From positions 14,570,001 to 14,634,000 of the forward strand of contig OX442314.1 of the NCBI GenBank assembly GCA_949358305.1: 64,000 nucleotides of DNA. Direction: 5' to 3'. A program made the translations under genes and the position numbers. The notes below the pieces were generated by a model. It made no database searches, was not told the DNA's origin, and saw nothing but the letters and a program-made list of their open reading frames with translations. Source of the DNA: Strigamia acuminata (taxonomy: Eukaryota). This document shows positions 1 to 62,500 of the stretch, one piece after another; position 1 is the stretch's first letter, and every line of letters begins with the position of its first letter.

Positions 1-3000
1 TTAGCGGCCGGATGGACTAAAGCCGTTTACAGTGGGCGCTATCACAAGCATTTGTTGGCCGTCAAAGTGGTCAACACCAACGGACATGATCTGCAGGCGT
101 GTTTGCGTGAAAAAGGAGACAGTTTTCAGGATTGTTATCGAAAATCGGCCGCGAAAATCCTCAAGGAGATCGTTCTGTTCAAACAACTCGTCCATGACAA
201 TATGCTCAAGGTTTGCATTTTTTTTATTCCCCGTTTTTAAAAACTAAAACAAAAGAAAAGAAAAGAATATTCTCTTTTTTTGTTCACTTTTTTATCTGTT
301 TTCTGTGTTTGTATTTATTAAAATTGGTTTAAGTGTTGACAGGAATAAATTTAAAAAGGGGGATAGAAATAACAGGTTTGCAGTTATGGTGGGGAAAAAA
401 AAAATATTTAATGAAAATCTACAATTTTTTTTTTTGTTTTGGTTTTTGAAAGACATAAATCAATTTTTTGGAATTTTTGAGGCTAAATTTGTTACATAGT
501 ATTAAAAAGGCAGTGAAAGAATGATTAAACATAATAAAAATAGAAATAAAAATTAGGAAAAAAAGAAGGGAAATTAAGTGTTTGGTGTAAGTAAAAGTGT
601 GTGCCTTGGAGACGTGGACGTCTAGTCCATCAATCTTTATCGTAACAGGCCATTTGAGGCTTATAATTTACGAGCTTACCTGGAGGCGGGTACTGGGGAA
701 ACTGCAATCACGTATACCTGGCCAACCTGGTCTATAAAGTACCGGTTAAAAAGAAAACTCCCTGCTGCGCGAGGAAAAAACGAAATAGAAATTCGCCAAT
801 GAATTTGCTGTGGTAATTTGACATTTTCTGAACATTTGGGTAGGGAAAAGGTGACTAAGCGTCCCGTATGGTATGAGAATATTGTCTCATTGTCTCGAAA
901 AATGACTGCAGGATACAATTGTCTCATGTTGAAAACTAGATTGGAATTTTGAGAGGTCATTTGTTTGGATAAGTATATTCAATTAATTTACGATGAAATT
1001 GTTATTCTAGAAATTTTTTGAATTATTTTCATTAAAAATTGAATTGATTTAGTTAAAATTAAATTATGTAAGGAAAAATTTTTTTTAAGGTATAGATTGA
1101 GTTTTAAAACAAATATCAAGTTTTCAAGTAAAAATGTGATATTTCTAGTAAAGTTTAGACATTTTGAATAAAATTGGAATTTTTCTGGTAAAACTGGAAT
1201 TATTCTGGTAAAACTGGAATTTTTCTCGTAAAACTGGAATTATTCTGGTAAAACTGGAATTTTTTGGTAAAACTAGAATTTTTTTGGTAAAACTGGAATT
1301 TTTCTGGTAAAACTGGAATTTTTCTGGTTAAACTGGAATTTTTCTGGGTAAATTGGAATTTTTCTGGGTAAATTGGAATTTTTCTGGGTAAATTGGAATT
1401 TTTCTGGTTAAATTGGAATTTTTCTGGGTAAATTGGAATTTTTCTGGGTAAATTGGAATTTTTCTTGGTAAATTGGAATTTTTCTGGGTAAATTGGAATT
1501 TTTCTGGGTAAATTGGAATTTTTCTGGTGCAGTTGAAATTTTTCAAATAAAATATAAATTTATCAAAGAAAAAACGATTTTTAGAGCATAGTTGAAATTT
1601 TTTTCAAATAAAATATAAATTTTTCAAGCAAAAAATGATTTTTCAAGTAAAAGTTGAATTCGTAGTGGATTCAATAATTGATCTTTTTTTGTTATTTGAA
1701 GCCCACTTTTCCAGCTCCGTGAATTCTTCCATTTTCACAATCCCAGTATTACAAAACGCAAACCCTGGAAAGAAACTCCATCCCACATTCTTCCACTAAA
1801 ACTTTAAAAAAAAATAATAATCGTGAAGAAATGTCTATTCAACCAAACAAAACAACTCAAATTTTAATTGGCCTTTGTCTCACCAGAGGTTTCGGCTTAT
1901 GCTAATCCCTGTTGATGAATGCCCAACGGAAAACGAAAAAAACGCAAGGATTGTAATTTTCTAATTGACCTGATTAAATATTGACACTTAGGGTAGGCAT
2001 AGCCCTCGATTTTAGTGAGCTTTGTGTCGCGTGACGGACACGTGCTCTCGTTCACCCATCGCAACCCCACCGGCATAGAAAAGCAACCAGATGCTCGTTG
2101 TGCACGGACCTCGAACTCAAATCGATATTAATAATGCATTACAACAAAATACAAGAAAAAAATTGGCCCTACCGCCTTCTGGGCCCAAGATGGAGGTATA
2201 AAAATACATAAAAAGAAAAAGAAAAGGGGAAAAACGGCCCCTGATGGGATTTTAGGCGCCTGATTGAATCCGTGTGTTGTTTGTGTTGAGTCTGCGATAT
2301 AAATTTCGCCACCAGACCATGTTGTAGCGAAGAATTTGGCCTATGGGATCGGTCTGCATCTATAAACATCATCCGTTGCGAGCCATCGCGAACCCTCGAA
2401 AAACAACATCCTGTTTGGTTAACCTTAAATCGCGTAATTTATGTCGGACCATAAAAGTATTAATTATCGTTCCTGTTTGGGATTGTAAGCCTAAGTGTAT
2501 TTTCATATGTGTTTTTTGACGCGGAATTTATTTTTATTGCGGTGATTTTAAGGAGTTGATAATTTATATGGTGCGCGACATTTTTTTGAGTTAAGGTTTT
2601 GTTTTGCACGAATTTCGAAGGGAGAAAGTCGAAGGGAGTGCTAAAAGGGCGGGCGGGGGTGCTGCGACTGGAGATTTTCCCCATCGTTTGGGATAATGAG
2701 ATGCTTTGCATTCTGAGCTCGCTTGTCGGCTGATGCCCTCATCTGCCATTGTGATGGCGGTGGCGGGGCGGGGGCAGATCGGGCAAGATGTTGTTTTATA
2801 TGCGACAGACCGTCGAACGATAAAATAAATGGGACGATTTTTATGATTGCGAACGGGATGTGTGTCGAGTCGAAGCAAACGGCCAAGTTTCCACCCTTTT
2901 ATATATTTGATGTTTTAGACTTGTGCACCGTCGAGGGAGCCGAGGAACCACGTGAAATGGATTTAAGAGATTAGGTTTAATCTAGGCCTAATGCAGTTCG

Positions 3001-18200: not shown

Positions 18201-18594
18201 TTGGAAAAAAATCGGTGATTTACTATGTGTTTTGAGATTTGGAAAAAAAGTTTTAATAACTTGTTTCGAGTTGAGTGTCGATGGTAGAAAAAAGTTGTTT
18301 TCCCAAGCAGAAAGTAAAGAAGGAACTTGAACTTACCAAAATAAATAATTATTTCTTCTCTTAATCTCTCTGTATCATTGTTATATATCGAGGAAAGGCA
18401 ATCGAGGGGGCGTATGTATTCTATTCACGCAAATCTGGCAGCATTCAGCAACACGGCACACAATAAAGTAAAAACATTAGGCACAGACCGTCAGCGCAAT
18501 TTTAGTTTCACAAATTCGTCACTTGGCGGCATTTTAGTTCGTTTATCAGATACATGCTCCCTCACGCGAGCCGGTTTGAAATCATCTTAAAGCG

Positions 18595-21500
18595 ATGTTT
18601 TTAAACGTTGGAAAGCAAAGTTTTCGGTTTTATTCTCGTGGTAGATGTTTTTCGGGGAACGTTGGTTCGCCGCAGAAGGAAAAATACGCTTTAAATGTCC
18701 CAACGACGAGTTTTGAATTAAGAATTGCTTCTAGCAAACGAACCGACTTAGAAACCGGTGTTCAAGAGGCAAATGAATAAAATGTTCTTCTGCATATATA
18801 ATAATTGCATTTAAATGATATGTTGCAGGCATGTGATTTCGATTCACTTTATTCATGGCAGCGTGAAGCGTTGAGAGCCAAACCATCATTTGTTGTGCAT
18901 GATGCACCGCCTCGTGCTAATGGTGCGCCGCACATGGGACATTTTGTTGACAAAGTTTGTATTTCTTCGATTGAAAAAAAGTGCCCACTTTACTTATCTC
19001 ATTCTATTTCCTCCGTAGGTGTTGAAAGATATTATAATTCGATATAAATTATTGACTGGTCATCGGATTCATTATGTACCTGGATTTGATTGTCATTTGG
19101 AATCAGTTGGATCGACGGTAATAAAAGAGGCAAATTACAAAAAATTTGATCCTTTAGAAGTAAGGAAGTTAGGTAAAAAGGTCAAATAAGTAATTGCGCT
19201 ATTTTTTTTAAATGATGTTTTTCAATATTTTAGTTCGTGATTTTGCTCTGTCTTCTATTAAAACTCAAAAGGCAGCTTTTAAACGCTGGGGAGTGCTGGC
19301 AGATTGGGAGAACAGTTACAACACATTAGATAAAGACTATGAAATTACACAATTTAAGGCGTTTTTTGAGTTGTACAAGAAAGTAATAATCTGCCATAAG
19401 AATAAGTTCAACAGATATTATTAACGATTTTTTAAATAAACTTAGGGACTAGTGTATAGAGATCTTAAGCCCGTTTATTTGTCACCGTCCACCAGGTACA
19501 CACAGAAAACGATTTATTCATTTGATACAAGGATAGATATTTTTTTTTTGTTATTTAGGTCAACTTTAACCGAAGCTGAAGTGGAATACAAACCCCGTCA
19601 AGTAACATGCGCTTATGTAAAATTTCCACTTAAAACTCTTCCTGCTATTTTGCAATCATATGCAGGTGTGGAAATGTACAACTGTAATATTAATACTACA
19701 AAACTTAAATTAATTTTCTTTTAAATATTATTTAGGAAATCATCCTATATTCGCTCTGATATGGACGACGCAGCCGTGGACGTTACCCATGAATGAATGC
19801 ATTTTGTACAACGAAGATATTGAGTTAATTAAACGAAATTAAAATTTTTGGTTAATATTTTAAATTTAAAAAAAAAAAAACTTTAGGTATTCTCTAGTGG
19901 AAAATATTGAATCAGGAATTATGTATGTTATTGCGAGTGATTTGGTTTCAACTTTAGAACAAATTCTGTCTCTTCGACTGAAGACATTAATTTCTTTCTC
20001 AGGTTTAAATTTTGATGAAAAAATCAAATTTGTTTTAAATAATTTTTTTGCAGGCGAAATTTTGAAAAATGCCACGTATATTGGTATACAAAGACAAGAA
20101 GAAATAAGAATGCTTCCAGCTGCGATTGTTACAGCCAGTAAGGGAACTGGATTAGTTCATTCTGGTCCATCACATGGATTTGTTGATTTTGATATATGCA
20201 TGAAATATAATTTACCCATGGTACGTGCAATATTGAACACTTTTTTATTAGGTACTTAAAAGTACTAAACAGAAACGATTTTATTTTATTTTTGCGTAAT
20301 TTTCAGAAAGATTATTTGGATGACAATGGTTGTTTCACAAATAAATGCAACGAGGAACGTTTAGTAGGAAAATCAGTTTTAGAAGATGCTGACCAAACGG
20401 CTCTTGATTTGTACAGTAAAAGCGTCGTCAAAGTTGAGAAATCGCTCCACTCTTATCCACACGACAGTAGAAACAAACCGGTGATTATAAAACCGAGCTA
20501 TCAATGGTTTCTCGACACTGGCAAACTTAAAGACAGCGCTTTGGTAAAACGATCGCATCTTTAGTTCAACATGGAATTAATAATTTTTCTTCTGAACACA
20601 CGAAGGCTTCTCTTAAACAAATTGAAGTTTTTCCGTCAAATATGCAAACTGGAATGGTTGACCAACTAAAAAATGTTTCCTCCTCGTATCCTATTTCACA
20701 ACGGAAAGCATGGGGTTTGCCTATTCCAGCATTTTATGAACAAGAATCAAACAAAGTTATTTTAAATAGGTAAGTTTGTTGGCCATGGCTCTTTTTACTT
20801 CACATGAAGTGGAATTAGTCATTCTAAAATTTGTTTGCTATTTATTGATATATTTTTTATTTTGTTAATATTTTTTTTTATGTTAGTGATTTAATTCAAC
20901 ATTGGTGCAAATTGGTTGACGAACACGGATCCGACATGTGGTGGCTCTTGTCCGATGCATCTCTCTTACCGAAAGAAATTTTAAAACAGGTGATATAATT
21001 AAGGGAAATTATATAATTTTTCTGAATGGATCTAAATATTGTTTAATTAATTTAGAATAAACTTTCGTTAGAAGCTGTTTACGAGAAAGGACAAGACATT
21101 TTAAATATTCGATTTGATAGCGGGATTTGGAAACATCTATTAACAGGTAACTTGCTTTTGACTAATTAAAGTTTAACTATTGCAAAAAAAAACAATATTT
21201 TGCAGGCACGAATTACGAGGCAGATGTTTGTTTGGAAGAAGTAAACCAATCTAATTGGTTTGAGCCATTCTTGTTAACCAGTGCTGCTTTTCAAGACAAA
21301 CCATCTTTCAAGTTAGATTGAAAAAGCGTACGATTTTAATATTCATCTCACAATTAATTTTTTTAATGCCCAGAAAACTGATTTACCACGGATTTGTCGT
21401 GGATAAACACAACAGAAAAAAATTGACAAAAGCTGTGGAAAGTGTTGATCCACAAATAGTTGTGAATGGACAAAATGTATTTCTCTTGTGTGCATCGGAA

Positions 21501-22825
21501 TGATTTTACGTAGAATTTACTTTAGTTTAAATTTAGGTTATGTCAAAGGTGCGCGGAGCGGATACGTTGCGATGGTGGGTGGCATGTCATGTTGTTGATC
21601 GTTCTAATGGTCCTTTTGTACCCAAAATTATCGAAGAGTGCACAAACACTGTACAAAAGGTAAATACTCCAATATAAAGTTTTCATTTTATCGGTAATTA
21701 CAATTTATTTTGTAGTTACGAGGGGCACTACGTTTTATGCTTCGAAATGTAGGAGATTTTGATTCGAGCAAAGATTTTGTCTCGCTGGATGACATGGAAT
21801 TAATAGACCAATATATTTTACATTTGTTGTATAAATATCAAGAAAAAGTACGTTTCTTTTATATTTTTTAATGGGTAATTATATTTTCAATAAATCTTTA
21901 GGTCGTAAACTCGTACGAATCCTTCAGATTTGATGATGTGTGCACCGAGACAAAAAAATTTATTTTTGACGATATATCTGAATTTTATTTGGAATTATGC
22001 AGAGACAGGTATTAAATCGTTATCTAGTCGTAAAGTAGATTATTTTTCATTTCCTCGTTCCTTTTTAGATTATACTGTGGTGAACCGAAAGGAAGAAAAC
22101 GTAAATCGTGTCAAACGGCTTTGCATCATCTTTTTGTGCATGCTACGTATTGTATCGCACCCATCCTTCCTCACTTGGCGGAAGAAGCTTTTTTCCATCA
22201 TCATGAATATGGAAATAAGAAAAAACTTATTTTCCGCAACGTTTGGCCAGATTGTTTGGAGAGCTGGAAAAATCCAAAGATTGAATCAATAGTCGCACCG
22301 GCAATTCAATTAGATGCACTTTTAAAAAAGGAAATTCCGGCTTTCGATTTACATGTAACTGAAGTTGATGTGACAATTCAAGGAAATCAATCAGTTGTGG
22401 ATGCATTAAAAGTATTTTGTTTGTTTATTTTTGTTTGGCAAGATTTACAACCTTTTTTTAATTCAAAATTTTTCAGATTTTACATCCGCAACCGAAAAGC
22501 AGTAATTCAAGTTTATGTGAACTTTTGAAAGTGGCATCTGTGACATTATCAACTCAAATATCTGAAACGAAAAACAAGAATCCAGTGATTTCTGCTATCG
22601 ATACTTCACTGAAGTTAAATGATGGTATGTCGGTCGTTGAGGCAAATATGTAATACGTAGCTTAATTTTACATATTTTACATGTTTATTAGATCAAGTAC
22701 AAAACTGCCTTCTAAATATAAGAAAATCAGACATGCCTAAATGTCATCGTTGCAAACGATATGTAGTGACAGATCCATCATCAGAATTGTGTTCCACTTG
22801 TTTACAGATTGTTGAAAACCTTTAA
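18595..22825 (+). CDS. Mitochondrial isoleucyl-tRNA synthetase-like paralog (copy A) with degenerate aminoacylation motifs; 21 exons, intact ORF
   Basis: All 21 exons join in frame without stops from ATG 18595 to TAA 22823-22825 and are colinear with copy B at the same intron positions. Retains [45 protein letters not shown] and C-terminal CHRC..CSTC. KMSKS is KLTKA, DIWFDSG is NIRFDSG, and so on. Confidence 0.9.
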
Positions 22826-23058
22826 AAAAAAGTTACTTAATTTTAGCGGTTAATTAGTTTGAAAGAGCATTATAACACTTTTGTAAAAACAAGTTATCGA
22901 TTTAATTTGTTTTTTCCTTTATTAAATTGAATAAAACTTCTAAAATTTGTGAGAAGGAAAGCACAGATGTGTATTTTATAGGTTCGGGAAGTTGCCACGG
23001 GGTCGCACTGCTTGACTCCCATCTTTTTCCATGTGCTTAGAAAGCAGAAGATCTCACG

Positions 23059-26000
23059 ATGCAAGTTAACATTTGTATGGGTAGGAAGTATCTACACATT
23101 TCTCTAAGAGCAATAAAAGTACGGTGTTTGTCATCAAAGAAAAAGGTTTTGTCACCTCAGAAAAAAAAGTATGCTGAAACACTGCTGCTTCCAAAAACAA
23201 GTTTCCCATTAAGAATTCCTTCTTCGAAAAGGACTGAATTGGAAGTAGGAATTCAAGAGGTATGGAACTTAAAATTAATACGATTTTAATTGATTATATT
23301 GATTCAACTTATATAATTTCTGCTTTACAGGCTTGCAATTTCAGTTCGCTTTATGCTTGGCAGCGAGAAGCATTAAAAGAAAAACCTCAGTTTGTTTTGC
23401 ATGATGGACCGCCTTATGCAAATGGAGTTCCTCACATGGGTCACCTCGTTAATAAAGTCTGGTTATACACACAGTAGTTAAATTTATTTTATTAATGCAC
23501 TATTTTTCTGTAGGTATTGAAGGATATTCTAATTCGCTACAAATTGTTGACAGGGTTCCGAGTTCATTATGTACCTGGCTGGGATTGTCACGGATTACCA
23601 ATAGAATTAAAAGTAATTAAATTAGATAATAAAAAAAATTACAGTCCTTTAGAAATTAGGAAGCAAGGTAAAAAGAAATTTGAATTTACATAAATTTAAA
23701 CGTTATAATTATTTTAAAATATTTATCAGCTCGTGCGTTTGCTCTAACTGCCATTGAAACGCAAAAATCGGCATTCAAACGATGGGGAGTGATGGCGGAT
23801 TGGGAAAATTGTTATTTGACTCTATCCAAAGGCTACGAAGTTACACAACTGAGGGCTTTTTTTGAGTTGTATGAGAAAGTATGGGGAATAAATTAAAAAT
23901 GTGATTGCACGTATGAATATTAGTAATCAATTGATTTTAGGGTCTCATCTTCAGAGATTTTAAACCTGTGTACTGGTCACCATCTACCAGGTACTAAAGA
24001 AAGCAGTCGAATTGTATTTATTTATAATTTTTATTTTTTTTTAGATCGGCTCTAGCTGAAGCAGAATTAGAGTACAATTCTACATACGAAAGCACGTGTG
24101 CATACGTACAATTTCCTCTTAAAAATATGCCTGCAATTTTCCAACCATATGCAGGTATATACCGGTAACTAAAAAATTAAGCTGAAATATATTTAATTTG
24201 TTAATAAACCAATAAATTCAGAAAAGCATTCAATTTTTGGTCTGATTTGGACAACTACTCCATGGACATTGCCCACCAATGAATGCATTGCATACAACGA
24301 AAATATTGAGTAGATTAAAATACAAATTTGTATTTTTAGTTTGTCCTCCTTATTTTATTTATTTTTTTTCCTTATTTGTAGGTATTCTCTAGTGAAAAAT
24401 AACGACTCGGGAGCTATGTACATTATTGGATCTGAATTGTGTTCCAAAATAGAAGAAACTTTATCCCTACAGTTTGAAAAATTAATTAGTTTTACAGGTG
24501 TGTTTAGTTAATTTCATTTTCTGTATAAAATGTAATTCTTATGTAACTTTTATTAGGCAAGGCTTTAGAGAATGTTACCTACGTGCATCCAGTGAGGCAT
24601 GAAGAACTTCGTTTTTTGCCAGCTGCGCACGTGAAAGCTCAGATGGGAACAGGCTTAGTTCACAGTAGTCCAAGTCATGGATTTGACGATTACAATTTAG
24701 GTGTCAAATTTAATTTACCTATGGTGAGTTACCTGAATGATTCTATAACATGTACGATTAGAATAATTTATTTGGTACTTTCCAGAAAAATTACTTGGAT
24801 GATAACGGCTGTTTTACAAATGAATGCAACGAGGAACGTCTGAGAGGAAAATCGGTTTTAGATGATGCCAATCAACTAGTACTTGGTTTATTTGGCGATC
24901 ATATTCTGAAAACAGACAAATTCATTCACAGTTATCCTCACGACTGGCGAAGTAAACAACCAGTGATTATTAAACCTAGTTTACAATGGTTTATTGATAC
25001 TGATAAAATAAAAGACAGCGCTTTGGTAATACGAGTCTCATTCATAATGGTTAGTACTTATTCTTGCTTATTTCAGGCTTTTCTTAAAGAAATTGACGTT
25101 TTCCCATCAAATATGATGTCTGGAATGAATGATCAATTAATCAACAGACCGTCGTGGTGCATTTCACGGCAAAGAAGTTGGGGGTTACCCATTCCAGCCT
25201 TCTATGAACAAAAATCAAAGAGAGTTATTCTGAACAAGTATGTTTATTCATTGATATTTAATGTATTTGATTGGTTAATATAATTTTTTGATTATCTTTT
25301 TAGTGATTTACTTGTTCATTGGTGCAAATTATTGGAGCAACATGGTTCTGACATGTGGTGGACTCTCCCAGACTCTTCACTCCTGCCAAAACAAATATTG
25401 CAAGATGTAATTTTTAGTATTGAGATTGTACTTTTCAAAATGGCTTAAAAATTGTTTTTTTTTTTTATATAGAATGGGCTGTCATCCGAAGCTGTTTATG
25501 AAAAAGGGCAGGATATTCTAGATATTTGGTTTGATAGTGGAATCAGTTGGAAACATCTGCTGTCAGGTTTGAAACATTAAGCTAAAATTATCACAAATGT
25601 TAATGTAATTATTCTACAGATGCAAATTACCAAGCGGACGTTTGTTTAGAGGGTGTGGATCAATCTCGTGGCTGGTTTCAGTCACTTTTGTTGACTAGTG
25701 TTGCTCTTCAACAGAAGCCTCCTTTTAAGTTTGTTGACGAATGTTTACAGTGTTGAAATAAATACACATTTGATTATTTTAATAAATAGAAAACTATTCT
25801 ATCATGGATTCGTATTGGATGAACAGGGACGAAAAATGTCAAAATCGATAGGAAATGTTGTCGATCCACAACTACTTGTGGATGGTGACAAAGTAATTAC
25901 TTTTATGCTTATACGTTTCGTTTGGTAATTTTTATTCATTCGACATTAAAATTAACTAGAATAAATCCAAAGCACTTGGTGCTGATACTTTGCGTTGGTG

Positions 26001-27236
26001 GGTGGCCACTCATGTTGTCGAACGTTCCAGTGTTTGCATTAAACAAGAAATACTCGACGAATGCTCGCAAGTGGTCCAAAAGGTATAATAAATAATTTAA
26101 TCACTTTAAGTAGTTGTGTTTTACACGTATTTGTTACAGATTCGTGCTGTATTACGGTATCTTCTTAGCAATTTGTCTGATTTTGATTCAAATAAGGATG
26201 CAATTTCATTGGACAAAATGGAATTAGTCGATCGATATGTTTTACATTTGTTGTACGAATACCGGCAAAGGGTAATTTAATCACTAGTTGAAAGAATTTT
26301 TTTTTATTTGCGTTTATTTGTAGGTCAGTAACTCGTACGAATCCTTCAAATTTGATGAAGCAGGTATTACAACTATGAACTTTGTAGCTAGAGATATATC
26401 TGCGTTGTACTTAAGTACAATTAGAGAACGGTATTGTTATACAATTTGCTAGTTATACGAGAAAAGGTTGATATATTTTTTGTTCTATTTAGGTTATATT
26501 GCAGTGAACCGATGGGACTAAAACGAAGATCATGTCAAACCGCTTTGCATCATCTTTATGTGCAGTTGGTATTTTCTATTGCACCCATTCTTCCCCATCT
26601 TGCGGAAGAAGCATTTCTACATCACCACCAATACGGTGACAAGAAAAAATTCGTTTTTCACAATATTTGGCCAGATTGTTTAGAAGATTGGAGAAATCCA
26701 GAGATTACATCGACAGTAGAAGCAGCAATCCAAATAGGTGCCATTTTAAATAAGGAAATTACGGCCCTTTCCTTAGATATAAATGGAATTGATGTGACAA
26801 TAGAAGGAAATCAATCATTTGTGGATGCATTGAAAGTAATTTTATTTAAAAAAAATTCCTTTTATCTATTTTTGAAATGTCTTTGTCATCCTTGTCAATA
26901 ATTCCAGCCTCTACATCCAGATGAGCAAAGCTGTCATTCACAACTCTGTGAACTTTTAAGAGTCGCATCAGTAACATTGACAATCCAATCAAATAACGAT
27001 AAAGCGCCAATTTCTACTATTGATGCATCACTTAAATTAGAAAACGGTAATTTTTAAAATTTATGGGAAATCTTGAATTAATTTATCGTTTGGTAGGTGA
27101 ATCGCGAGATTTTCGTCTACACCTTCAAAAAGCAAACAGACTTCAATGCGGGCGTTGTCGGCGTTATGTTGTTTTAGATCCAGCGACAGATATTTGTTCC
27201 TTTTGTTTACGAGTAATCGGGGATCAATGGAGTTAG
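23059..27236 (+). CDS. IARS2: Isoleucine--tRNA ligase, mitochondrial (copy B, canonical); 21 exons
   Basis: [25 protein letters not shown] (HIGH), [89 protein letters not shown] (25833-25847), C-terminal zinc finger CGRC..CSFC, Arg/Lys-rich presequence; TAG at 27234-27236. Confidence 0.95.
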
Positions 27237-35198: not shown

Positions 35199-37679
35199 AT
35201 GGGAGATCAAAAGATTGAGGTAACAAATTGAAATTTAATATGTAAAACAAGTAATAAGTCAAAGAAGTTTGGTCTAACGAACAGCAAAACGTGAAGATTT
35301 TACAATTGATGTCGGCTAATGATTTTTGAATTTTTTAGGCGAATAAATTGAAGGACTTGGGCAACGGTGCTTTATCCGTTGGGAATATCGACCAAGCCAT
35401 AGAGTATTACTCAAAAGCCATTAACTTAGATGCCCAAAACCACGTTCTATTTAGCAACCGATCTGCTGCGTACGTTAAAGCAAACCGTTTCTCAGAAGCT
35501 TTGAAAGACGCTGAGAAAACAATAGCGCTTCAACCAGCATGGGGCAAGGTGAGTTGCCAATTATCAGAAATTTTGGGGACATTCAAACTGATTTTTTGTT
35601 AAAAATAGGGTTATTCAAGAAAAGGTGCAGCTTTAGAGTATATGGGAAAATACCAAGAAGCTTTAACTGCGTACGAAGAAGGTTTAAAGAATGATTCGGC
35701 TAATCAACAACTGGTGGATTCAGCGGCAGAAGTCAAGAAAAAGTTATTTTGTGCGTATTAGATGAAATTTTTGTGGTGATTGAGACATTTATTTTTATTT
35801 TATTTTATCAAAAGCTAATGAATTTCCACTAGACAATCCATTCGGAGGATCAGATTTGATGGCTAAATTAGCCATGAATCCCAAAACTAGAGGTTACTTA
35901 AGCGATCCTGGTTATATTGCGATGATTAACGAACTTCAAAGAAATCCTAATTCAATGAGGTTCGATTATTTGTTTTCTATCAGTTGAGGTTACTGATTTT
36001 TTATTTTATTTTTTGTAGCAATTTCCTTAAAGATAAACGAGTTTTGGATACTTTAGGGGTTTTAATGGGATTGAACTTGGATCAAACGGGAGATGAAGCG
36101 ATGGATACTTCCGAGCAGGAAGAAGTTCCCAAAGAAGAACCAAAACCAGCACCTAAAAGTAATTCAAGGAAAAGTGATCCTCCAGCTGAACCCATAAGCG
36201 ATGAGAAACAGAGGGTAATTTGTTTGCTTATAGAAAAAAAAGAATGATAAATATATATACATTTAAATGTTCTGCAGGCGGCGACAGAAAAGGAACATGG
36301 TAATGATGCGTATCGAAAACATAATTTCGAACAAGCGCTAGAACATTACGAGAAAGCCTTTAAGTTTGATTCTACAGATATGACATTCCTTAACAATATT
36401 GCGGGTAGATTATACGAAACCCTAGTACCAAAATTGGAGATTTAATTTATTTTTTTTGCATTTTTTTACAGCTGTTTATTTCGAGCAAGGCAAATATGAG
36501 GAATGCATTAAACAGTGTGAAAAGGCTGTCGAAATTGGACGCGAAAATAGAAATGATTACAAACTAATTGCCAAGCAAGTGCTCCTTAATATTTCATTAA
36601 ATATAAAAATTATATTTTTTTTTACGTTTTAGGGCGTTAGCTCGAATTGCAAATTCATATTGCAAGCTTAAAGATTTTGGAAAGGCAAAAGAGTACTACG
36701 AGAAATCATTAAGCGAACATCGAACTCCGGAAACAAGAGCTAAACTATCAGATGTATTTTATTTTACGGGAAATTTTAAATACAATTTTTTTTAAACTAT
36801 CGATAATATTGTAGATTGAAAAGATATTTAAACAAGAACAAAAAAAGGCTTATATCAATCCAGAGATAGCTCTAGAAGAAAAGAATTTGGGCAACGATTG
36901 TTTTGCTAATGGTAGTCGATGTTTTTAAGTATACAAACGATAATTTAATGATTTGTTTTTTAAATTGTTTTAAGGCGACTATCCACAAGCTGTTAAGCAC
37001 TACAGCGAAGCAGTTAAACGCAATCCTGACGATGCCAAGCTCTACAGCAACAGAGCCGCTTGTTACACCAAACTGGCGGAATTCCAACTTGGTCTTCGAG
37101 ATTGTGATGAATGCATACGTTTAGAGCCCGACTTTAGTAAGAGTTATAAAAAAAAACATTTGTCGACAGTTTTAAAAATATATATTTTTATTTTTATTAA
37201 ATTAGTCAAAGGTTACATTAGAAAAGGTACGATATTGATGGCGTTGAAAGATGAATCGAAAGCGGCGCAAGCTTTCAGAAAGGCAGTTGAACTTGATCCA
37301 AACAACCAGGTATATTTGTTTGTGAGGGAATTGGATTTGATAAGAGTTACATATTATTTTTTTTTGCTTTTGTATTTATTTAGGAAGCTATCGATGGTTT
37401 TAGGCGATGCTCGATGGCTTTAAACAACGATCCTGAGGAAGTTAGGCGCCATGCAATGTCCGATCCGGATGTCCAAAGGATTTTGAAAGATCCAGCCATG
37501 AGATTGATTTTGGAACAGATGCAGGACGACCCGAAGGCTTTACAAGAGTACGCTGACATTTTATTAATACGTAGTGGATTGAATTTAATTTAATTTTTAT
37601 TTACAGGCATCTTAGAAATCCTGAAATTGCCGCAAAAATTCAAAAGCTTATAGAATCTGGACTGATTGCCATACGTTGA
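35199..37679 (+). CDS. STIP1: Stress-induced phosphoprotein 1 (Hop/Sti1), TPR co-chaperone, multi-exon
   Basis: [147 protein letters not shown]. Confidence 0.96.
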
Positions 37680-40212: not shown

Positions 40213-43061
40213 TCACAAGTGCGTTTCTGTTAAATTACGAGCTTCTATTGATGTCTTTGATGATTCTTCATAATTGATCGATTCTTCATAATTGATCGAT
40301 TCTTCATAATGGATCCATTTTTCATTCGGTTGAAATGCTTTCTGCCAATTCTATTTTTTTTAATTTAAATTTAAATTTTATCAATAGGCAAAACAAAAAA
40401 ATGAAAACTTACACCGTTTTTCCAATGCTTAAAAACGACTAACACAGCCCAAAAAATTGGTTGAACAATAATAAACAAAGCGATAAACCATCCAACGACA
40501 TGCGCGGCAATAGGATAATGATAACAACCGTATTTCGGAGGTGTAGACGTACTCCACGATACTGCAGTTAAGGCCTGGAAAAAAGATGTTCAATATTATT
40601 ATTAACGCCGTTTACAAACGAATCAACAAAATTCCATCGGTTGAATTTGTCTCGTGATGGACAAACGAATGTAGCCATGGACGTTTGTTGTTTATTTTGT
40701 GATTTTACGTGTTGTTATTAGCTTACAAGTATAACGACAGGACATATATATTTCCAACAAATTTGTAGAAATTTATTTGGTTTGAAACCGAGCATTTCGT
40801 TGATATCTTCGCAAAATTTATCTGTCCCTAGAAGAAATACAGTAATTACATTAAATAATTGATAAATACCGTATTGAATGTAATAAACCATAAATCCACA
40901 TGACCGCAATAACTTCCCAAGCTATCAGCAATGTCCTGCCCATCACGCTGTAGCTATCCACTAAATTTAAGACGTATTGTCCACCCTAGAACAAAACAAT
41001 AAAAATGTAATATAAGGAGTTGTTTAACCAAGTCATCACTGACAGCAGTACAGTAAACTAGTCCAAGCAGAAAAAATACGGAACATGAAATGAAGTAAAG
41101 TAATGTCTGATGCTTTTCTAAGTTTGGTCTGTCGTCAAACACCGCAGTCCACAACGCTTCTATCGAGGCAAACTGAAAAAGAAAATTCCAGAATTTATAA
41201 ACTTAAGTAATTTTTGCATGTTCATAGGCGCAGTGTTCGGGCCAAAACTGACACTAAAAAGTGATTAGAATGCAGCTGTTGTTTGCATAAGTGATTTTTC
41301 TTAACTGTTGAATCAATTCCAAGTGTAAATAACATCAGAAAAAACATAAAACACCATAGTTGGGGAACAGGTAGACGTGTAACGACTTCTGGAAATACAA
41401 TGAATGCTAGTCCTTGTCCTGTCATGTAAATTTTAAGAGAGAAAAAAATTAGGAAGCACACACAAAACAGGTTTGCGCTGGTACTTACCACCAGCAAAAA
41501 TTTTATCTATATTCGTGTTTAAATCTTTAGCTAGGGAACCGATTACTGCAAATACAACGGTACTAGCCATCACACTCGTCACATAATCCAGGATAACGAC
41601 TTGCAAGACATCTCTGAAATGAATTAATTAGGGGTTATACGGCCATCTTTAACTCATTTAAGATTTTACCTGTGTAATTTGTTATGGAAACGGTTATAGC
41701 TGGCTAGTGTTATTATACCTCCGTTAGCTAAGCTTAAAGAATACACCAATTGCTGCGCTGCATTAAACCATACCTAATAATTTATTTTCAAATTTTTTTA
41801 ATGCAAAATCTGATTAGGCAACAACAACACACGTCTTCACTTTAATTTCCAGAAGTTTACTCCATTTGGGATTGAAAAAATGGGCAAGTCCGTCAATTGC
41901 TCCATCTAATAATAAACCTTGAATCATCAGTGCTAACAGAATTACGTATGGGAGTGTAGCAGTCACATAAACTGCCTGCAAATTCAAAATAAACGTAATC
42001 AATAATTTTTGTTTTGTATTTTCATCTGTTTTTGTTGTTACCTTTCCTGATGTTTTTATACCTTTAAAAACACAAATGAATATTAGAATCCAAGTGCCAG
42101 CCAATGCTAGAACAAGTCGCCATTGAAGAAAATTTATGTGCTCAATTCCATCCGAAGCACGAATATTCAGTACATAAATGCTGATGAAGGAAATTGTACG
42201 TACATATGAGTAATCTGTAGTAGGTGAATTAATATTTACTTATTACTCCCAAAATTGCTGCGTCGATGATTGTGGAATGGACGAATTGCTATCGCAATCA
42301 ACTTCGGATTTGATGATTGCCTCATCCACTACTTTAGTCTGTTTTTATTTGAATTTTTAAGAGTCACACTATTTTATATTTAAAATGTCTAAATGTTAAA
42401 TAATAGTAAAAATTAGTAACCTCTGCACGAACGTAGCAGTTATCATCAGCTCCCCACCAAGAGCTACAATTTGTCCACGGTAATTTCTTAGCAAACGACA
42501 ACACCATATATAACATCGTGTACGACATAATTACATTATAATACGTTATACCGATAACAACTGTAACTATCATTCCCCAGCCAATTCCTACCGAGAAATA
42601 AAGCATTAAAAAAAATTATAAATGGAATAATCTGATGTGCTGTGCTGAGTAATGACAAATAGGGTAAATTTCAACGAATTTGTGAATGTTTACCTTTTGC
42701 TGCTGGGCAAGAGTGCCATACAGCTAGAGCTCCGCTTTGCGAATATTGGCCTCGCGCAATCTCCATGTAGTATAAAGGGTAGCCGACAAATACAGAGAGG
42801 AGGATATATGGTATTTGAAATGTTCCTTTAGTTAAGAAATGTTTATTATTAATTTGAAATCTTGTTGAAATATACCGGTATATTTTTTCAATTCTTACCG
42901 CCACCATTTTCAAACGCGACGTACGGATAACGCCAGACATTACCAATGCCAACGGATAAACCAATGCATGATAAAATAAATTCTACTTTATTAGACCAGT
43001 GTTCACGTTTACGACGTATTTGAGCTGGTTGTGCTGTAACTGCTGTTACACTAGTTGACAT
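40213..43061 (-). CDS. SLC6 (NSS) sodium-dependent amino-acid transporter, multi-exon
   Basis: [81 protein letters not shown]. Gly rather than Asp in TM1 points to an amino-acid, not monoamine, subtype. Ends ..TETHL*. Confidence 0.9.
40262..40315. repeat. 18-bp x3 coding tandem repeat (YEESIN) in the SLC6 C-terminal tail
   Basis: GATTCTTCATAATTGATC three times; minus-strand translation [18 protein letters not shown]. Confidence 0.9.
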
Positions 43062-58184: not shown

Positions 58185-59591
58185 TCATCCATTTTCGTAC
58201 GTTTGTCCAAAATGCCAATTATGATTTGGTTTTCCTAAACTCAATTTTGGTATTGGTCTCTTTCGCCTCCTCCTGACTTTCCTTTGTTTCCACATATAAA
58301 ACACCATCATGAGAGCAAAAAATAAAATGGCACAGCCTCCAATAATACTACTAATCACTATAGTATTGGTCGTGCTCGCAGACATGGCCGGCGAAGGCGA
58401 TTGCTTTCTCTCTTTGTCGTCGTAGAACGTTTCAATGTCAGGCGCCATGTCTAGCGGGTAATCAGCTGGCATATCTTTGAGTAATGTCATTACCGCGCTA
58501 GGTTCGCTCTGACTTGGTGTTGGCATCGGTGTCGATGTGCTCGACGATGAACTCTCGGTGAATGACGCTAATTGAATCGTCGATGATTCTTCAGCACGCG
58601 ATTGCGTAGTTGCAAACGTTGTAAGAATTTTCGCCGTTTTCTGACGGAAATGCGCGATCATCTTAGGACGTGCCAGTCTGCTCCGAATGGTCGCCCGACG
58701 GTCTTGTTTGGCAGTGGTGGATGGAGTATCCATTACGGTTGTAGTAGTTGGTTGTTGTGTGGTAGTGGTGGATGGAGTATCCATTACGGTTGTAGTAGTT
58801 GGTTGTTGTGTGGTAGTGGTGGATGGAGTATCCATTACGGTTGTAGTAGTTGGTTGTTGTGTGCTTTTTAATGTAGTGGAACTTGTATGTACAGTCAGTT
58901 TGGTTATTTTTATTGGTGTTGTTGGATTTACGGTGGTCGGGCTCGTCGGATTTGTGGTTTTAGCATCGATTGTACCGCCAGTTTGATTACTACGAGTAAT
59001 TATGACTAGTGGTACGGGTTTTCTCAGTTTAACGGTCGATGAAATGATTTTAGTAGTGGTTTTTGAAGTTGGGGTTGTTGTTATAGGCGGCGCTGATGTG
59101 GAAGGAGAATCATTTTCCTTATCAGTAGCGTCGTAAATTTGTTGCTGCTTCTTTTTTGTGTACCTTTCATCTTCAGCTGATATTGAGAAGCGAACGTTTG
59201 TACCTAAGAGAGCTAGGGCTAATGGTTTTTCTGTATCTTCTTCGCTGTACTCGTCGCTGTCAGTTTGTTCGCTTGATGGCGTCGTTGTCGGCGCAGATGC
59301 GTGCAGATTTCCATCTTGTTTATTCACTTTTAACGCGGCTTCGGTGTTGCCATCTGATGTGTCTCGACCAACAATTCCCTTACTGATGTAGTTTACTTCA
59401 CCCGCATGGGGAAAATTCGTCTCTGTTTCTGTTTCCATTTCGTGTGGATCTTGCAATTGGACAAAATGAGTTTTTACCACCGATGAAGAAATTCCATCCA
59501 ATTCCTTCCAGTCCGATGCACCTGTGGTAATTTGCGCAATCCACGTGAATACCACCAGGAGGTGAATGTTTGCTCTATCCATCTTAAACAT
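58185..59591 (-). CDS. Uncharacterised mucin-like type I membrane glycoprotein, single coding exon, nested antisense in a SETD3 intron
   Basis: 468-aa ORF in AT-rich DNA: signal-peptide-like N-terminus (IHLLVVFTWIAQITTGA), Thr/Ser/Pro-rich ectodomain, hydrophobic TM (IVISSIIGGCAILFFALMMVFYMW), basic stop-transfer segment, short tail ending QTYENG. Confidence 0.8.
   Translation of the reverse strand: MFKMDRANIHLLVVFTWIAQITTGASDWKELDGISSSVVKTHFVQLQDPHEMETETETNFPHAGEVNYISKGIVGRDTSDGNTEAALKVNKQDGNLHASAPTTTPSSEQTDSDEYSEEDTEKPLALALLGTNVRFSISAEDERYTKKKQQQIYDATDKENDSPSTSAPPITTTPTSKTTTKIISSTVKLRKPVPLVIITRSNQTGGTIDAKTTNPTSPTTVNPTTPIKITKLTVHTSSTTLKSTQQPTTTTVMDTPSTTTTQQPTTTTVMDTPSTTTTQQPTTTTVMDTPSTTAKQDRRATIRSRLARPKMIAHFRQKTAKILTTFATTQSRAEESSTIQLASFTESSSSSTSTPMPTPSQSEPSAVMTLLKDMPADYPLDMAPDIETFYDDKERKQSPSPAMSASTTNTIVISSIIGGCAILFFALMMVFYMWKQRKVRRRRKRPIPKLSLGKPNHNWHFGQTYENG
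58713..58863. repeat. 51-bp x3 coding tandem repeat (QQPTTTTVMDTPSTTTT)
   Basis: ATGGAGTATCC recurs at 58721, 58772 and 58823, exactly 51 bp apart, with near-identical units. Confidence 0.95.
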
Positions 59592-62500
59592 CCCTACGTA
59601 GGGAATCGACAGTTTGGATTTTCGAAGGAACCTTGAATTGACATTGGGAATTCCTGAGAAATAAGAATAAAACGAATGGAATTAAATTGCAACATTGTAT
59701 TTTTAAATAAATAAATAAATAAATAAATAAAATGAAATAATGTGCATGTGTAAACACCATTTTGTGTGCAAATGGCGTGCCGATTCTCATGAAATCGCAC
59801 TCTTTCACACCATAAATTTAGCTAGGTTTTCATTAGAGAAGGACACACCGCACCTTTTTACTCCACTCGTGGCTCTTACAAACCGCCTTTTTCCTCTTCA
59901 CTTTTTTCATTTGTTTACGTTAATTATAATTCTTTTTATTCTCAGTCATTTGTTCGGTAATTACCGCAGAGAAGGCTAATTGTGTACACTAAAGTTGTGA
60001 CCTCAAAAGTAGGTCCTCAATATTTATCTTTTGTGCTTTGTCCTTGAGTTACTTGTGGTTAAAAATTAGGGTGTAATTTTTAATTTTTAATTTTCCGCTC
60101 GTCAATTAAGTGAGGGAATTGTTGTTTAAAGAATCTCATTAATATGTACGAGTTGCAAATGAACGTGCGTTGAACTCGAGATATTTGATCTAAGTTTTCT
60201 CAATTTCATTTCCTGCTAATAAGTTATCCCCAGATCTGCATGCGATGCCATCAACCTGAGTCTTTATTAGTGATTAGGAAGGTACAGGAGTCAGTTTCCT
60301 CGGAATGTATTGAGTAAACGTAAACGTCAAGAAAGTGTAATGAACTTGGATGAAGGGGGGAAGGAAATATTTAATAATGAAGAGTTTCTATGCTGGAATA
60401 AATAACACTTTGGCCTGAAAAAAAAAAATGAAAAATAGAGACATCCAGCGTAGGAAATTGCGTTTTGGTTAGTGATTTTAGAAAAACATTAAATTTGGAC
60501 ATTTTTTTTATACGATGTAATTATTTTTTTTTATTATTTGTGATTTTTATTTAAATCTGTGCCACTGTTTTTATTGCGTGTTTGCATGCTTGATTTGAGT
60601 TTATGGATATGCATGTGGGAGATATTTTACGTTGCTGACATTTTTAGAATTTTATTTTTTAAATTCAAAAAAAAAAAAAATGTTTGTTGAAATATTTTCT
60701 TGTTTTTCAAATTTTTGTTGAAATGAAATTAGAAAAAGTAAACAAGATGACGTAATATAGCTTAAAACATGCAGCGAGCAGTATAAAAACCATGAAACTT
60801 TAAAATAACCTTGCACTTTAGTTATCTAATCACTTGAAACTGATGCCATTACTTAAATGTAAGAAGGATGATTGAGATTACAAGTATGAATATGTGGCAT
60901 TTAAAAAAGTGAAATAATTTTATACGAAATTAAGCTTCAATTTAAAAAAAATAAATGAATATTTTATCCGGGGAAAAGATAATAGAATTTCTAATTAATC
61001 TCTTTTTCAAAAAAGCAGTCGCGTAAAGTCCCTTAATTGTGATTAAAATTGATTTATTTTTAATTTTTATTTCTCAAGAAATTTAATTAAATAGGAAGAA
61101 AAATAAAACAGTAAAGCACTTCCTTCTTTCATCAAAGTTGTTTTTCCCCCCTTTGTAATTTATACATACTGAAGTATAATTGATACTATTTTTATATTAT
61201 AATTTACGTAAAGGGGATTTTCAAATTCTACCGAAATGAGTAATGACGGACGAATATAACGAGTGAAAAATACAAATGCAAATTCTTACCTGGTTGTTCG
61301 ACAACTACCTCTTTATAAAAAAGAGGCTTTCATTTCATCTTGTCTGTAAATCCAAATTACACATAAATTTGAAGTTGAAATTTCACGTGAATCCAACAAA
61401 ACGTAATGAAACTTAGCAGCGCTCATATGATGCACGGACCTGGGTTTATACCTGTCTTGGCCCCGAGGGAAGGCCATGCGTGCTCACCTCAGTTTTATGA
61501 CTTAAATGTGCATATAAGCTTGACTGCAACTCCTTATGGCCAATCTTTTGACGATTTGCACACCGCTAAAACAGTCTACAAGAGTATAGGAGGATTCTTT
61601 TTTTAGTTCTTTGATGGAAAAAAGTTTTATTGTAACACTAGAGTGTGAAAGAGACAATTGCAAGTGGTCGATTGAAAGGGTTTATTATTATTATGATTAT
61701 TTTTTGAAGCGAGATAAAGATCGAGCCATCACTTTTCTAGTCATAATTTTCTATTTTCTGTTTCAATCTGGGTGGGGTTGAGGAAGGAAAGTTGAGAAGT
61801 GGGAAATGGTTTGTACCAATTTCGTGTAATGTGAATTGTGAATTGGATGTTAATTGTTGGAGAGAATAAGAGCAACTTCGACGTGTGGTTATGTGACTGG
61901 GTTACAAGTGTTGGTGGAATTAAGTCCGGTGTTTTTTTTGTGTGTTAATTACTTCCATGGTTGGTTTTTGTCAAGATGGCGAACGTTCTTAGATTTTGAC
62001 ACTTCCCCGTTATGTGTTTCTGGACCAGTTAATTTTTTTTTTCTTTTTTCGAAGTCTTTTTCATAAGTCAAGTGAACTTTGGAGTTCTATTTGATTTGTG
62101 AGGCAGAACGAAAACGGTTTATTTTTGCTTGACCAAGTTAGTGATTTTTATGTTACCACTGACCAATAAAGAAATGAAAAATCGTTTTTTTTAAATACTT
62201 TATTGTACGTGATTTTTTGAATTTTGAATATAATTTAGGTCAATTAAAACCCGGTAGTGATGCAAATGGATACAAATTGTATTTTCTTTTTTCTCGACTT
62301 TTTTGTTGTTGCTGAAATATAAAACCGAGAAAAAATTATCCCAAGGAAGTGATTATTGCTCATATTAATGTTGGTTATGAGTGATCGTTGGGGAAAATAC
62401 GTTAATTTATTATCCGTTATCGCCATTTTGTGCAAATTTGGAAAGAAAATGAGAAATTGGTAAGATTAATTGGAGAAATTAAAAAGCAGCTGGAAAGGTT

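What the first reader, a model, noticed from the sequence alone, without database searches (positions are those of the whole stretch)
18595..22825. Intact tandem paralog of mitochondrial IleRS with a selectively dismantled aminoacylation site: candidate IleRS-like pseudoenzyme (SLIMP analogue)
Seen: 21 exons splice into one uninterrupted ORF; indels versus copy B are all whole codons; scaffold segments are close to copy B ([40 protein letters not shown]). Changes concentrate in normally invariant catalytic motifs: HDGPPYANG>[11 protein letters not shown]>DK after [15 protein letters not shown]>[15 protein letters not shown]>YLSP, DWRSK>[15 protein letters not shown]>[18 protein letters not shown]>[19 protein letters not shown]>[20 protein letters not shown]>KLTKAVESV. 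Known: these motifs form the Ile and ATP pockets of class Ia IleRS, and SLIMP is a catalytically dead mitochondrial SerRS paralog with an essential new role. Inference: a decaying pseudogene this diverged (introns not obviously alignable by eye) should carry stops or frameshifts, so this looks like a selected protein with a new or partial function. The presequence-like N-terminus ([20 protein letters not shown]) suggests it still goes to mitochondria. I do not know of a described metazoan IARS2-like pseudoenzyme.
Basis: partly seen in the sequence, partly recalled or inferred. Interest (0 to 1): 0.92.

Follow-up and report, generated by a model that had tools for sequence, protein, structure and literature searches.

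The report
Centipede non-charging mitochondrial IleRS paralog
A centipede carries, beside its normal mitochondrial isoleucine-charging enzyme gene, a spliced and conserved second copy that has lost the residues predicted to hold the tRNA's 3' end for charging but kept those predicted to grip and proofread tRNA, so it likely works as a non-charging tRNA helper, a young parallel to the known SLIMP protein.

Summary
Observation confirmed. Copy A (18595-22825) has 21 exons and an intact 973-aa ORF, 62% identical to canonical copy B. The host is a Strigamia-like centipede (B is 81% identical to S. maritima IARS2). A is no assembly artefact or pseudogene: the motif changes recur in another run, 4 of 20 introns appear spliced in one RNA-type run, and against a related organism dN/dS is 0.17 over 143 codons (p=4e-6). 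Charging is very likely lost. Best reading: a non-charging mt-tRNA-Ile binder (chaperone or quality control), plausible in a lineage whose mt-tRNA-Ile gene is predicted to lack a proper acceptor stem. Rivals: trans-deacylase, adenylate-only enzyme. No A-like protein or paper was found. No biochemistry or fold of A was possible, and only two species show it.

The parts
18595..22825 (+). Copy A: IARS2 paralog, 21 exons (18595-18768, 18829-18954, 19019-19172, 19234-19382, 19446-19495, 19559-19665, 19736-19823, 19887-20002, 20054-20220, 20307-20543, 20606-20769, 20887-20989, 21056-21146, 21206-21311, 21374-21476, 21537-21659, 21716-21847, 21902-22008, 22069-22411, 22477-22624, 22692-22825), 973 aa
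   Evidence: introns 1, 11, 17, 18 seen spliced in run X5
18595..18660 (+). Presequence-like N-terminus (basic, one acidic residue in the first 35; RCFS where B has RCLS); mitochondrial import inferred only
18898..18954 (+). HIGH region: HxGH kept; G84A, Y87R, N99D
19082..19111 (+). [10 protein letters not shown] region: Asp124 kept; W123F and five consecutive invariant residues (127-131) replaced
19762..19782 (+). CP1 editing threonine-rich motif, kept (WTTQPWT; Q occurs in 100 of 119 reference IARS2)
20143..20187 (+). CP1 editing GTG..H...HG..D motif with the catalytic Asp366, kept
   Evidence: role of the Asp from PMC4861432 passages
20463..20477 (+). CP-core loop DSRNK: W431S, Arg432 kept, one-codon deletion after it
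20678..20707 (+). Linker mapped to the tRNA 3'-CCA pocket: R481S, W484Y, C485P, R488Q (K in runs X1, X2), Q489R, R490K, one-codon insertion before it
   Evidence: residue roles from PMC7955072 passages
21104..21124 (+). NIRFDSG: D562N and W564R (Ile-pocket and CCA-pocket wall), followed by deletion of an invariant Ser
21235..21267 (+). EGxDQ..GWF region: E586, Q590, W593 kept; G587E, D589N, Q595E, one-codon deletion between Q590 and W593
   Evidence: contacts from PMC7191050 passages
21417..21446 (+). KMSKS loop as [13 protein letters not shown] favours one codon inserted before and one deleted after (8 vs 18 base differences), which keeps both lysines
21537..22276 (+). SC-fold and anticodon-binding helical domain: 31 of 31 invariants kept; dN/dS 0.17 against organism B over exons 18-19
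   Evidence: PF08264
22742..22801 (+). C-terminal four-cysteine zinc motif, kept
22930..22935 (+). AATAAA after copy A's stop, inside the 233-nt gap before copy B's ATG
23059..27236 (+). Copy B: canonical IARS2, 21 exons, 984 aa, all motifs intact, 81% identical to S. maritima T1IPW0
   Evidence: three introns seen spliced in X5

Best explanation
Copy A is a spliced tandem duplicate of mitochondrial IleRS under purifying selection that likely can no longer charge tRNA and likely acts as a non-charging binder (chaperone or quality-control holder) of mitochondrial tRNA-Ile. Shown: intact gene, splicing, purifying selection, and the pattern of lost and kept residues. Inferred steps: (1) the protein is imported into mitochondria; (2) it docks tRNA-Ile through the intact anticodon domain and zinc motif; (3) because the synthetic-site pocket for the 3'-CCA hairpin and the Trp wall of the Ile pocket are gone, the acceptor end cannot be placed for transfer, so it stays free or rests in the CP1 site; (4) this would stabilise the structurally degenerate mt-tRNA-Ile or hold it during 3'-end maturation, while copy B does the charging.
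For: Purifying selection on A itself: 17 synonymous and 13 nonsynonymous differences in 143 codons against organism B (run X4), dS 0.23, dN 0.039, ratio 0.17, p=4e-6, no coding indel listed. Splicing of introns 1, 11, 17, 18 in X5. Residues mapped to the CCA-end pocket: 10 of 11 changed, pN 0.55 against a gene-wide pS of 0.65, more than even the least conserved columns (112 of 222 differ; binomial p=0.006). Anticodon-domain invariants 31 of 31 and C-terminal 9 of 9 kept, pN 0.02. A's branch is 7-9 times B's (0.49-0.54 vs 0.058-0.067). Context from passages read: S. maritima trnI has a severely truncated or missing predicted acceptor stem (PMC4368715); overexpressed human mt-IleRS improves cells with mutant mt-tRNA-Ile, and mt-LeuRS rescue needs no catalysis (PMC3927953).
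Against: No binding, import or charging data. Adenylate contacts (12-13 of 17 kept, pN 0.13) and editing residues (13 of 15 kept, pN 0.13) are also constrained, which a pure holder does not need, unless for fold reasons. Pocket assignment is by motif from two yeast cytosolic IleRS structures, not from a model of A. The isolated C-terminal domain of IleRS did not rescue tRNA mutants in yeast. 3' rebuilding of 21 of 22 mt-tRNAs is reported in Lithobius, so general machinery exists that a tRNA-Ile-specific young paralog cannot explain. The between-species dN/dS covers only 143 of 973 codons, none in the catalytic core. The mt-tRNA-Ile of this organism was not seen.
Confidence: 0.45

Rival explanations
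1. Free-standing trans-editing factor: A recognises mt-tRNA-Ile by the anticodon and hydrolyses mischarged Val-tRNA-Ile in its CP1 site, which needs neither ATP nor the synthetic pocket. It can coexist with the best explanation.
For: 13 of 15 editing-site residues match B, including the catalytic Asp366; the T-to-Q change is the state in 100 of 119 reference IARS2; pN 0.13; no indel between residues 232 and 433. The Asp is the main determinant of deacylation.
Against: B keeps its own editing site (29 of 33 CP1 invariants, A 25 of 33), so a second editor is not obviously needed; A lost H342, P343 and H356 equivalents in CP1; no paper on editing by metazoan mt-IleRS turned up (listings only).
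Confidence: 0.22
2. Adenylate-forming or ligand-binding enzyme uncoupled from tRNA transfer (like Sulfolobus LeuRS-I), possibly with a new substrate: two arginines (R87, R564) now stand where aromatic residues lined the amino-acid pocket.
For: HxGH, P85, N89, D124, R432, E586, Q590, W593 and (shifted register) both KMSKS lysines are kept; 12 of 17 adenylate contacts kept vs 1 of 11 CCA-pocket residues, Fisher p=0.002.
Against: G587E and D589N hit the ribose contacts, a deletion separates Q590 and W593, the loop after Asp124 is replaced, and the KMSKS loop has compensating indels.
Confidence: 0.15
3. SLIMP-like partner or regulator of copy B or of another mitochondrial complex, acting by protein contact rather than tRNA binding.
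For: Precedent of SLIMP; whole fold is under constraint; tandem arrangement.
Against: Class I synthetases are mostly monomeric; B shows no reciprocal domain loss (40 of 45 invariants kept downstream of residue 641, A 41 of 45).
Confidence: 0.08
4. A still charges tRNA-Ile through a rewired active site adapted to an unusual acceptor end.
For: Key histidines and lysines are kept and an Arg is gained in the HIGH loop; an earlier scan note (e1-3924557, unchecked here, partly fallen) argued for such rewiring in a bacterial IleRS.
Against: A fails all 7 motif patterns whereas none of 120 database IARS2 fails more than one; the CCA pocket evolves at a neutral-like rate; five indels fall in core motifs.
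Confidence: 0.06
5. Decaying pseudogene or assembly artefact.
For: A's branch is long; no A-like protein in databases.
Against: dN/dS 0.17 between species; spliced transcripts; 0 of 300 neutral simulations kept the ORF open even at 0.05 substitutions per site; run X1 contigs carry the same motif changes.
Confidence: 0.04

Closest known systems
Metazoan mitochondrial IleRS (IARS2, bacterial IleRS1 type)
   Same: Same domain order, same 20 intron positions as copy B, anticodon domain, CP1 editing motifs, C-terminal Cys4 motif; A groups with B and S. maritima IARS2 at 100/100 support.
   Different: All 7 tested signature patterns broken; CCA/Ile pocket residues replaced; branch 7-9 times longer than B's.
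SLIMP (mitochondrial SerRS paralog; PMC10570016, PMC9437257)
   Same: Duplicate of a mitochondrial synthetase, faster evolving, catalytic pocket degenerate, tRNA-binding part kept.
   Different: SLIMP is class II, arose at the root of bilaterians, forms an obligate heterodimer whose partner lost its coiled coil, and cannot bind ATP. A is class Ia, young, tandem, keeps most adenylate contacts and an editing site, and B lost nothing.
LeuRS-I of Sulfolobaceae and LeuRS2 of Halobacteria (as described in PMC9437257)
   Same: Class Ia duplicates that keep tRNA binding with no or little aminoacylation; LeuRS-I keeps adenylation but cannot transfer.
   Different: Archaeal; LeuRS-I has a disrupted CP1 editing domain, whereas A keeps the CP1 motifs and loses the CCA pocket.
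Free-standing editing factors (AlaX, YbaK/ProX, archaeal ThrRS-ed; recalled, no call)
   Same: Would deacylate mischarged tRNA in trans, if the first rival holds.
   Different: Those are isolated class II editing domains; A is a full-length class Ia scaffold with its anticodon domain.

Membership tests
IARS2 gene family (by descent) | Homology and grouping with mitochondrial IleRS | tested here: met
   62% to B, 57% to S. maritima IARS2; clade 100/100; PF00133 and PF08264 hits on exons 2 and 19
Active IleRS | HIGH motif (HxGH) | tested here: met
   HMGH kept, flanking G84A, Y87R, N99D
Active IleRS | KMSKS loop | tested here: inconclusive
   KLTKA; lysines kept in the DNA-supported register, second lysine lost in the ungapped one
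Active IleRS | Invariant residues of the tRNA 3'-CCA and Ile pocket | tested here: not met
   10 of 11 changed
Active IleRS | CP1 editing motifs with catalytic Asp | tested here: met
   13 of 15 match B
Active IleRS | C-terminal Cys4 zinc motif | tested here: met
   C947, C950, C963, C966
Active IleRS | Forms Ile-tRNA-Ile | not testable with these tools
   needs biochemistry
SLIMP | Descends from mitochondrial SerRS (class II) | tested here: not met
   IleRS-derived, class Ia; an analogue at most
SLIMP-like pseudoenzyme (works-like) | Catalytic pocket degenerate while gene is kept under selection | tested here: met
SLIMP-like pseudoenzyme (works-like) | Partner shows reciprocal domain loss | tested here: not met
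   B keeps 40 of 45 invariants downstream of residue 641 and all motifs
SLIMP-like pseudoenzyme (works-like) | Mitochondrial location, tRNA binding, heterodimer with the active copy | not testable with these tools
   only a presequence-like N-terminus
LeuRS-I-like paralog | Disrupted CP1 editing domain | tested here: not met
   CP1 motifs kept
LeuRS-I-like paralog | Adenylation without transfer | not testable with these tools
   12-13 of 17 adenylate contacts kept is compatible

The most novel reading that the evidence does not exclude
Copy A is a newly born factor for centipede mitochondrial tRNA 3'-end biology: an IleRS locked out of charging that grips tRNA-Ile by the anticodon, leaves the unfinished acceptor end free for the unidentified enzyme that rebuilds centipede mt-tRNA acceptor stems, and proofreads the result in its CP1 site.
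Probability: 0.12. Interest if true: 0.92.

Novelty: new variant of a known kind. Interest (0 to 1): 0.72.

Why it matters
Among animal synthetase paralogs that lost catalysis, the review read here lists only SLIMP, which is ancient. This is a young class Ia case with its intact twin next door and a near-natural dissection: anticodon grip and editing site kept, 3'-end pocket released. It makes the proposed non-catalytic tRNA-chaperone role of mitochondrial class Ia synthetases directly testable, and it occurs in a lineage with degenerate, probably 3'-rebuilt mitochondrial tRNAs whose repair enzyme is only hypothesised. The narrow known distribution (two species) limits its generality.

Tried and rejected
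No whole genome is held, so other copies and other synthetase paralogs in this genome could not be sought. Searches for A-like proteins found none: exon 19 against longer proteins, 1 hit among 123 candidates, the B-like S. maritima protein; that protein as query, best 120 of 7991 listed, all others 40-45% identical; exon 19 against 1.84 billion representatives, 88 hits, none but P0001 above 56%; exon 8-9 stretch, 1 weak spider hit among 276 candidates. These are weak evidence of absence; whether S. maritima has copy A is open. P0127, which lacked several motifs, is a lamprey UniRef entry that looks mis-spliced in the alignment, not a parallel case. Run X6 laid 0 contigs, no proof of absence. 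X4 does not cover the catalytic exons, so whether organism B shares the motif changes is unknown. No run was on record as RNA; X5 is taken as RNA from its spliced joints only, and contig depth cannot rank A against B. Order of duplication and the split from S. maritima is unresolved (B+S. maritima 78/68; A+B not rejected, p-AU 0.32; the richer-model search did not finish and gave the quick tree). No structure of spliced A was predicted, so pocket geometry is untested. Earlier scan notes: nothing for this genome or sequence. Literature searches (listings only; one search showed 25 of 570, 20 of 39) showed no metazoan IleRS pseudoenzyme; subscription journals are not covered.
Full report
Observation. 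Copy A runs 18595-22825 in 21 exons and gives 973 residues with no internal stop; 19 introns are GT-AG and intron 1 is GC-AG. Copy B (23059-27236, 984 aa) has introns at the same places. The two proteins are identical at 601 of 969 aligned positions, all indels are whole codons, and dN/dS between them is 0.26/1.5 = 0.17.

Host. No genome is held. The nearest database protein is Strigamia maritima IARS2 (T1IPW0), 81% identical to B and 57% to A; the other 119 listed IARS2 proteins are 40-45% identical to it. The window is therefore most likely from a geophilomorph centipede near Strigamia (inference). Flanks: RAB3GAP2 downstream on the minus strand (Pfam hit); the upstream minus-strand ORFs look SIPA1L-like by recalled sequence, with no Pfam hit on the one piece scanned.

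Not an artefact, not a pseudogene. Runs X1 and X2 hold both copies as DNA. For X1 contigs 1, 4 and 5 all differences were listed (6, 5 and 7) and none restores a motif; one changes Q488 to K. Run X5 has contigs that skip exactly introns 1, 11, 17 and 18 of A and introns 8, 18 and 20 of B (15 of 18 joints listed). That is one run, not on record as RNA, and its depth ranks nothing. Run X4 (organism B) has a 1118-nt contig over A's 3' part. Over 143 codons of exons 18-19 it differs by 17 synonymous and 13 nonsynonymous changes: dS 0.23, dN 0.039, ratio 0.17, p=4e-6, with the only indel on that contig in the intron. Thirty-five of that contig's 43 differences were listed; if the other 8 were all nonsynonymous and in range the ratio would be about 0.28 (my arithmetic). 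Of the 13 coding variants of A among the 40 rows shown, 7 are synonymous and 6 not (134 rows were not shown). In neutral simulations 0 of 300 copies kept an open frame at 0.05 substitutions per site.

Evolution. A, B and S. maritima IARS2 form a clade (100/100) with branch lengths 0.49, 0.067 and 0.091 (0.54, 0.058, 0.093 in the quick tree). Their order is unresolved (p-AU 0.32 for A+B), so the duplication is about as old as the split from S. maritima. Nearly all the divergence is on A's side: 70 changes unique to A against 4 unique to B at outgroup-polarised sites.

What was lost and what was kept. In an alignment with 119 IARS2 proteins (vertebrate-heavy), A changes 34 of 112 invariant, B-kept residues in catalytic segments and 7 of 99 elsewhere (p=1.8e-5), with 0 of 31 in the anticodon domain, 0 of 9 in the C-terminal part including four zinc cysteines, and 4 of 29 in CP1. 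I then mapped residue sets named in papers, by motif and offset, onto B. From Candida IleRS with Ile-AMP (PMC7191050, passages): 12 of 17 contacts are kept in the ungapped alignment and 13 in the register favoured by DNA (8 against 18 base differences), including both HIGH histidines, D124, E586, Q590, W593, R432 and the KMSKS lysines; Y87R, G587E, D589N and M628L are changed. From yeast IleRS, the pocket that overlaps the tRNA 3'-CCA end (PMC7955072, passages): 10 of 11 are changed, among them the three arginine equivalents and W564R, which also stacks on the isoleucyl group (one residue belongs to both sets, and the F191 mapping rests on a recalled motif). Editing residues, chosen from recalled CP1 motifs plus the catalytic Asp (PMC4861432, passages): 13 of 15 match B. 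Nonsynonymous divergence per site is 0.55 in the CCA pocket, close to the synonymous 0.65, against 0.13, 0.13 and 0.02 for adenylate, editing and anticodon/C-terminal invariants and 0.27 for the least conserved columns. Indels after the N-terminus fall at residues 231, 434, 480, 569, 591, the KMSKS loop and 908. Release and positive selection cannot be told apart with these data.

Mechanism. The part that places the tRNA end for transfer is released, so charging is very likely gone (my estimate about 0.9). The part that recognises the tRNA body is the most constrained. I commit to a non-charging mt-tRNA-Ile binder (0.45). The biological fit is indirect: S. maritima trnI is among the tRNAs whose predicted acceptor stem is truncated or lacking (PMC4368715, passages); Lithobius rebuilds the 3' side of 21 of 22 mt-tRNAs by an activity that is only inferred (PMC4284800, passages); human mt-IleRS overexpression helps cells with mutant tRNA-Ile, and for mt-LeuRS this needs no catalysis (PMC3927953, passages). 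Against it: the same paper reports that the IleRS C-terminal domain alone does not rescue in yeast; constraint on adenylate and editing residues is unexplained; nothing was measured.

Comparison with known systems. By descent A is an IARS2, but it fails a defining feature of active IleRS. It resembles SLIMP in being a fast-evolving, pocket-degenerate mitochondrial synthetase paralog (PMC10570016, passages), but is class Ia, young, and B lost no domain. It resembles archaeal LeuRS-I in keeping tRNA-binding parts and possibly adenylation, but LeuRS-I has a disrupted CP1 (PMC9437257, parts 1-2 of 6 read); that review lists only IleRS2 and SbzA as IleRS duplicates. PMC10485003 (passages) names Asn70 of a bacterial IleRS1 as a mupirocin contact; it aligns with A's N99D. 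No supplements were read; those of the structure papers may refine the contact lists. Searches (listings) showed no metazoan IleRS pseudoenzyme, and four protein searches found no A-like sequence; both are limited evidence.

Verdict. A real, expressed, selected IARS2 paralog with a specifically released tRNA-end pocket: a new variant of a known kind (synthetase-like paralogs). Interest 0.72: surprising and directly testable, but known from two species, function unmeasured, no fold of A.

Noticed in passing
window 23962-25871 vs 18300-22256: Run X1 differs from the window at 0 bases over about 1.9 kb of copy B but at 26 over the five contigs on copy A: uneven polymorphism between the tandem copies, cause unknown.
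   Followed up: no
window 22826-23058: Only 233 nt separate A's stop from B's ATG, with A's AATAAA at 22930; B's promoter must be very short or overlap A's 3' end, so read-through or interference is possible.
   Followed up: partly
window 18769-18828: Intron 1 of copy A is GC-AG where copy B has GT-AG; seen spliced in X5.
   Followed up: yes
window 19771-19773: A has Gln at the third threonine of the CP1 motif, as most (vertebrate-heavy) reference IARS2 do, while B and the arthropods shown have Thr; three base changes, apparent convergence.
   Followed up: partly
window 44315-44576: Two tRNA-Ser(TGA) genes in divergent, inverted arrangement.
   Followed up: no
window 1118-1658: Tandem repeat array of about 60-nt units.
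   Followed up: no
window 58185-59681 (-): 498-aa single-exon ORF, Thr-rich mucin-like with short repeats and a C-terminal hydrophobic segment.
   Followed up: no
P0001: The S. maritima IARS2 database model appears to skip exons (around the CP1 WTT motif and part of the anticodon domain) and has an aberrant C-terminus.
   Followed up: partly
window 36974-37423, 41814-42239, 49575-49916: Ordinary neighbours: a TPR protein, a sodium:neurotransmitter symporter and Numb.
   Followed up: no
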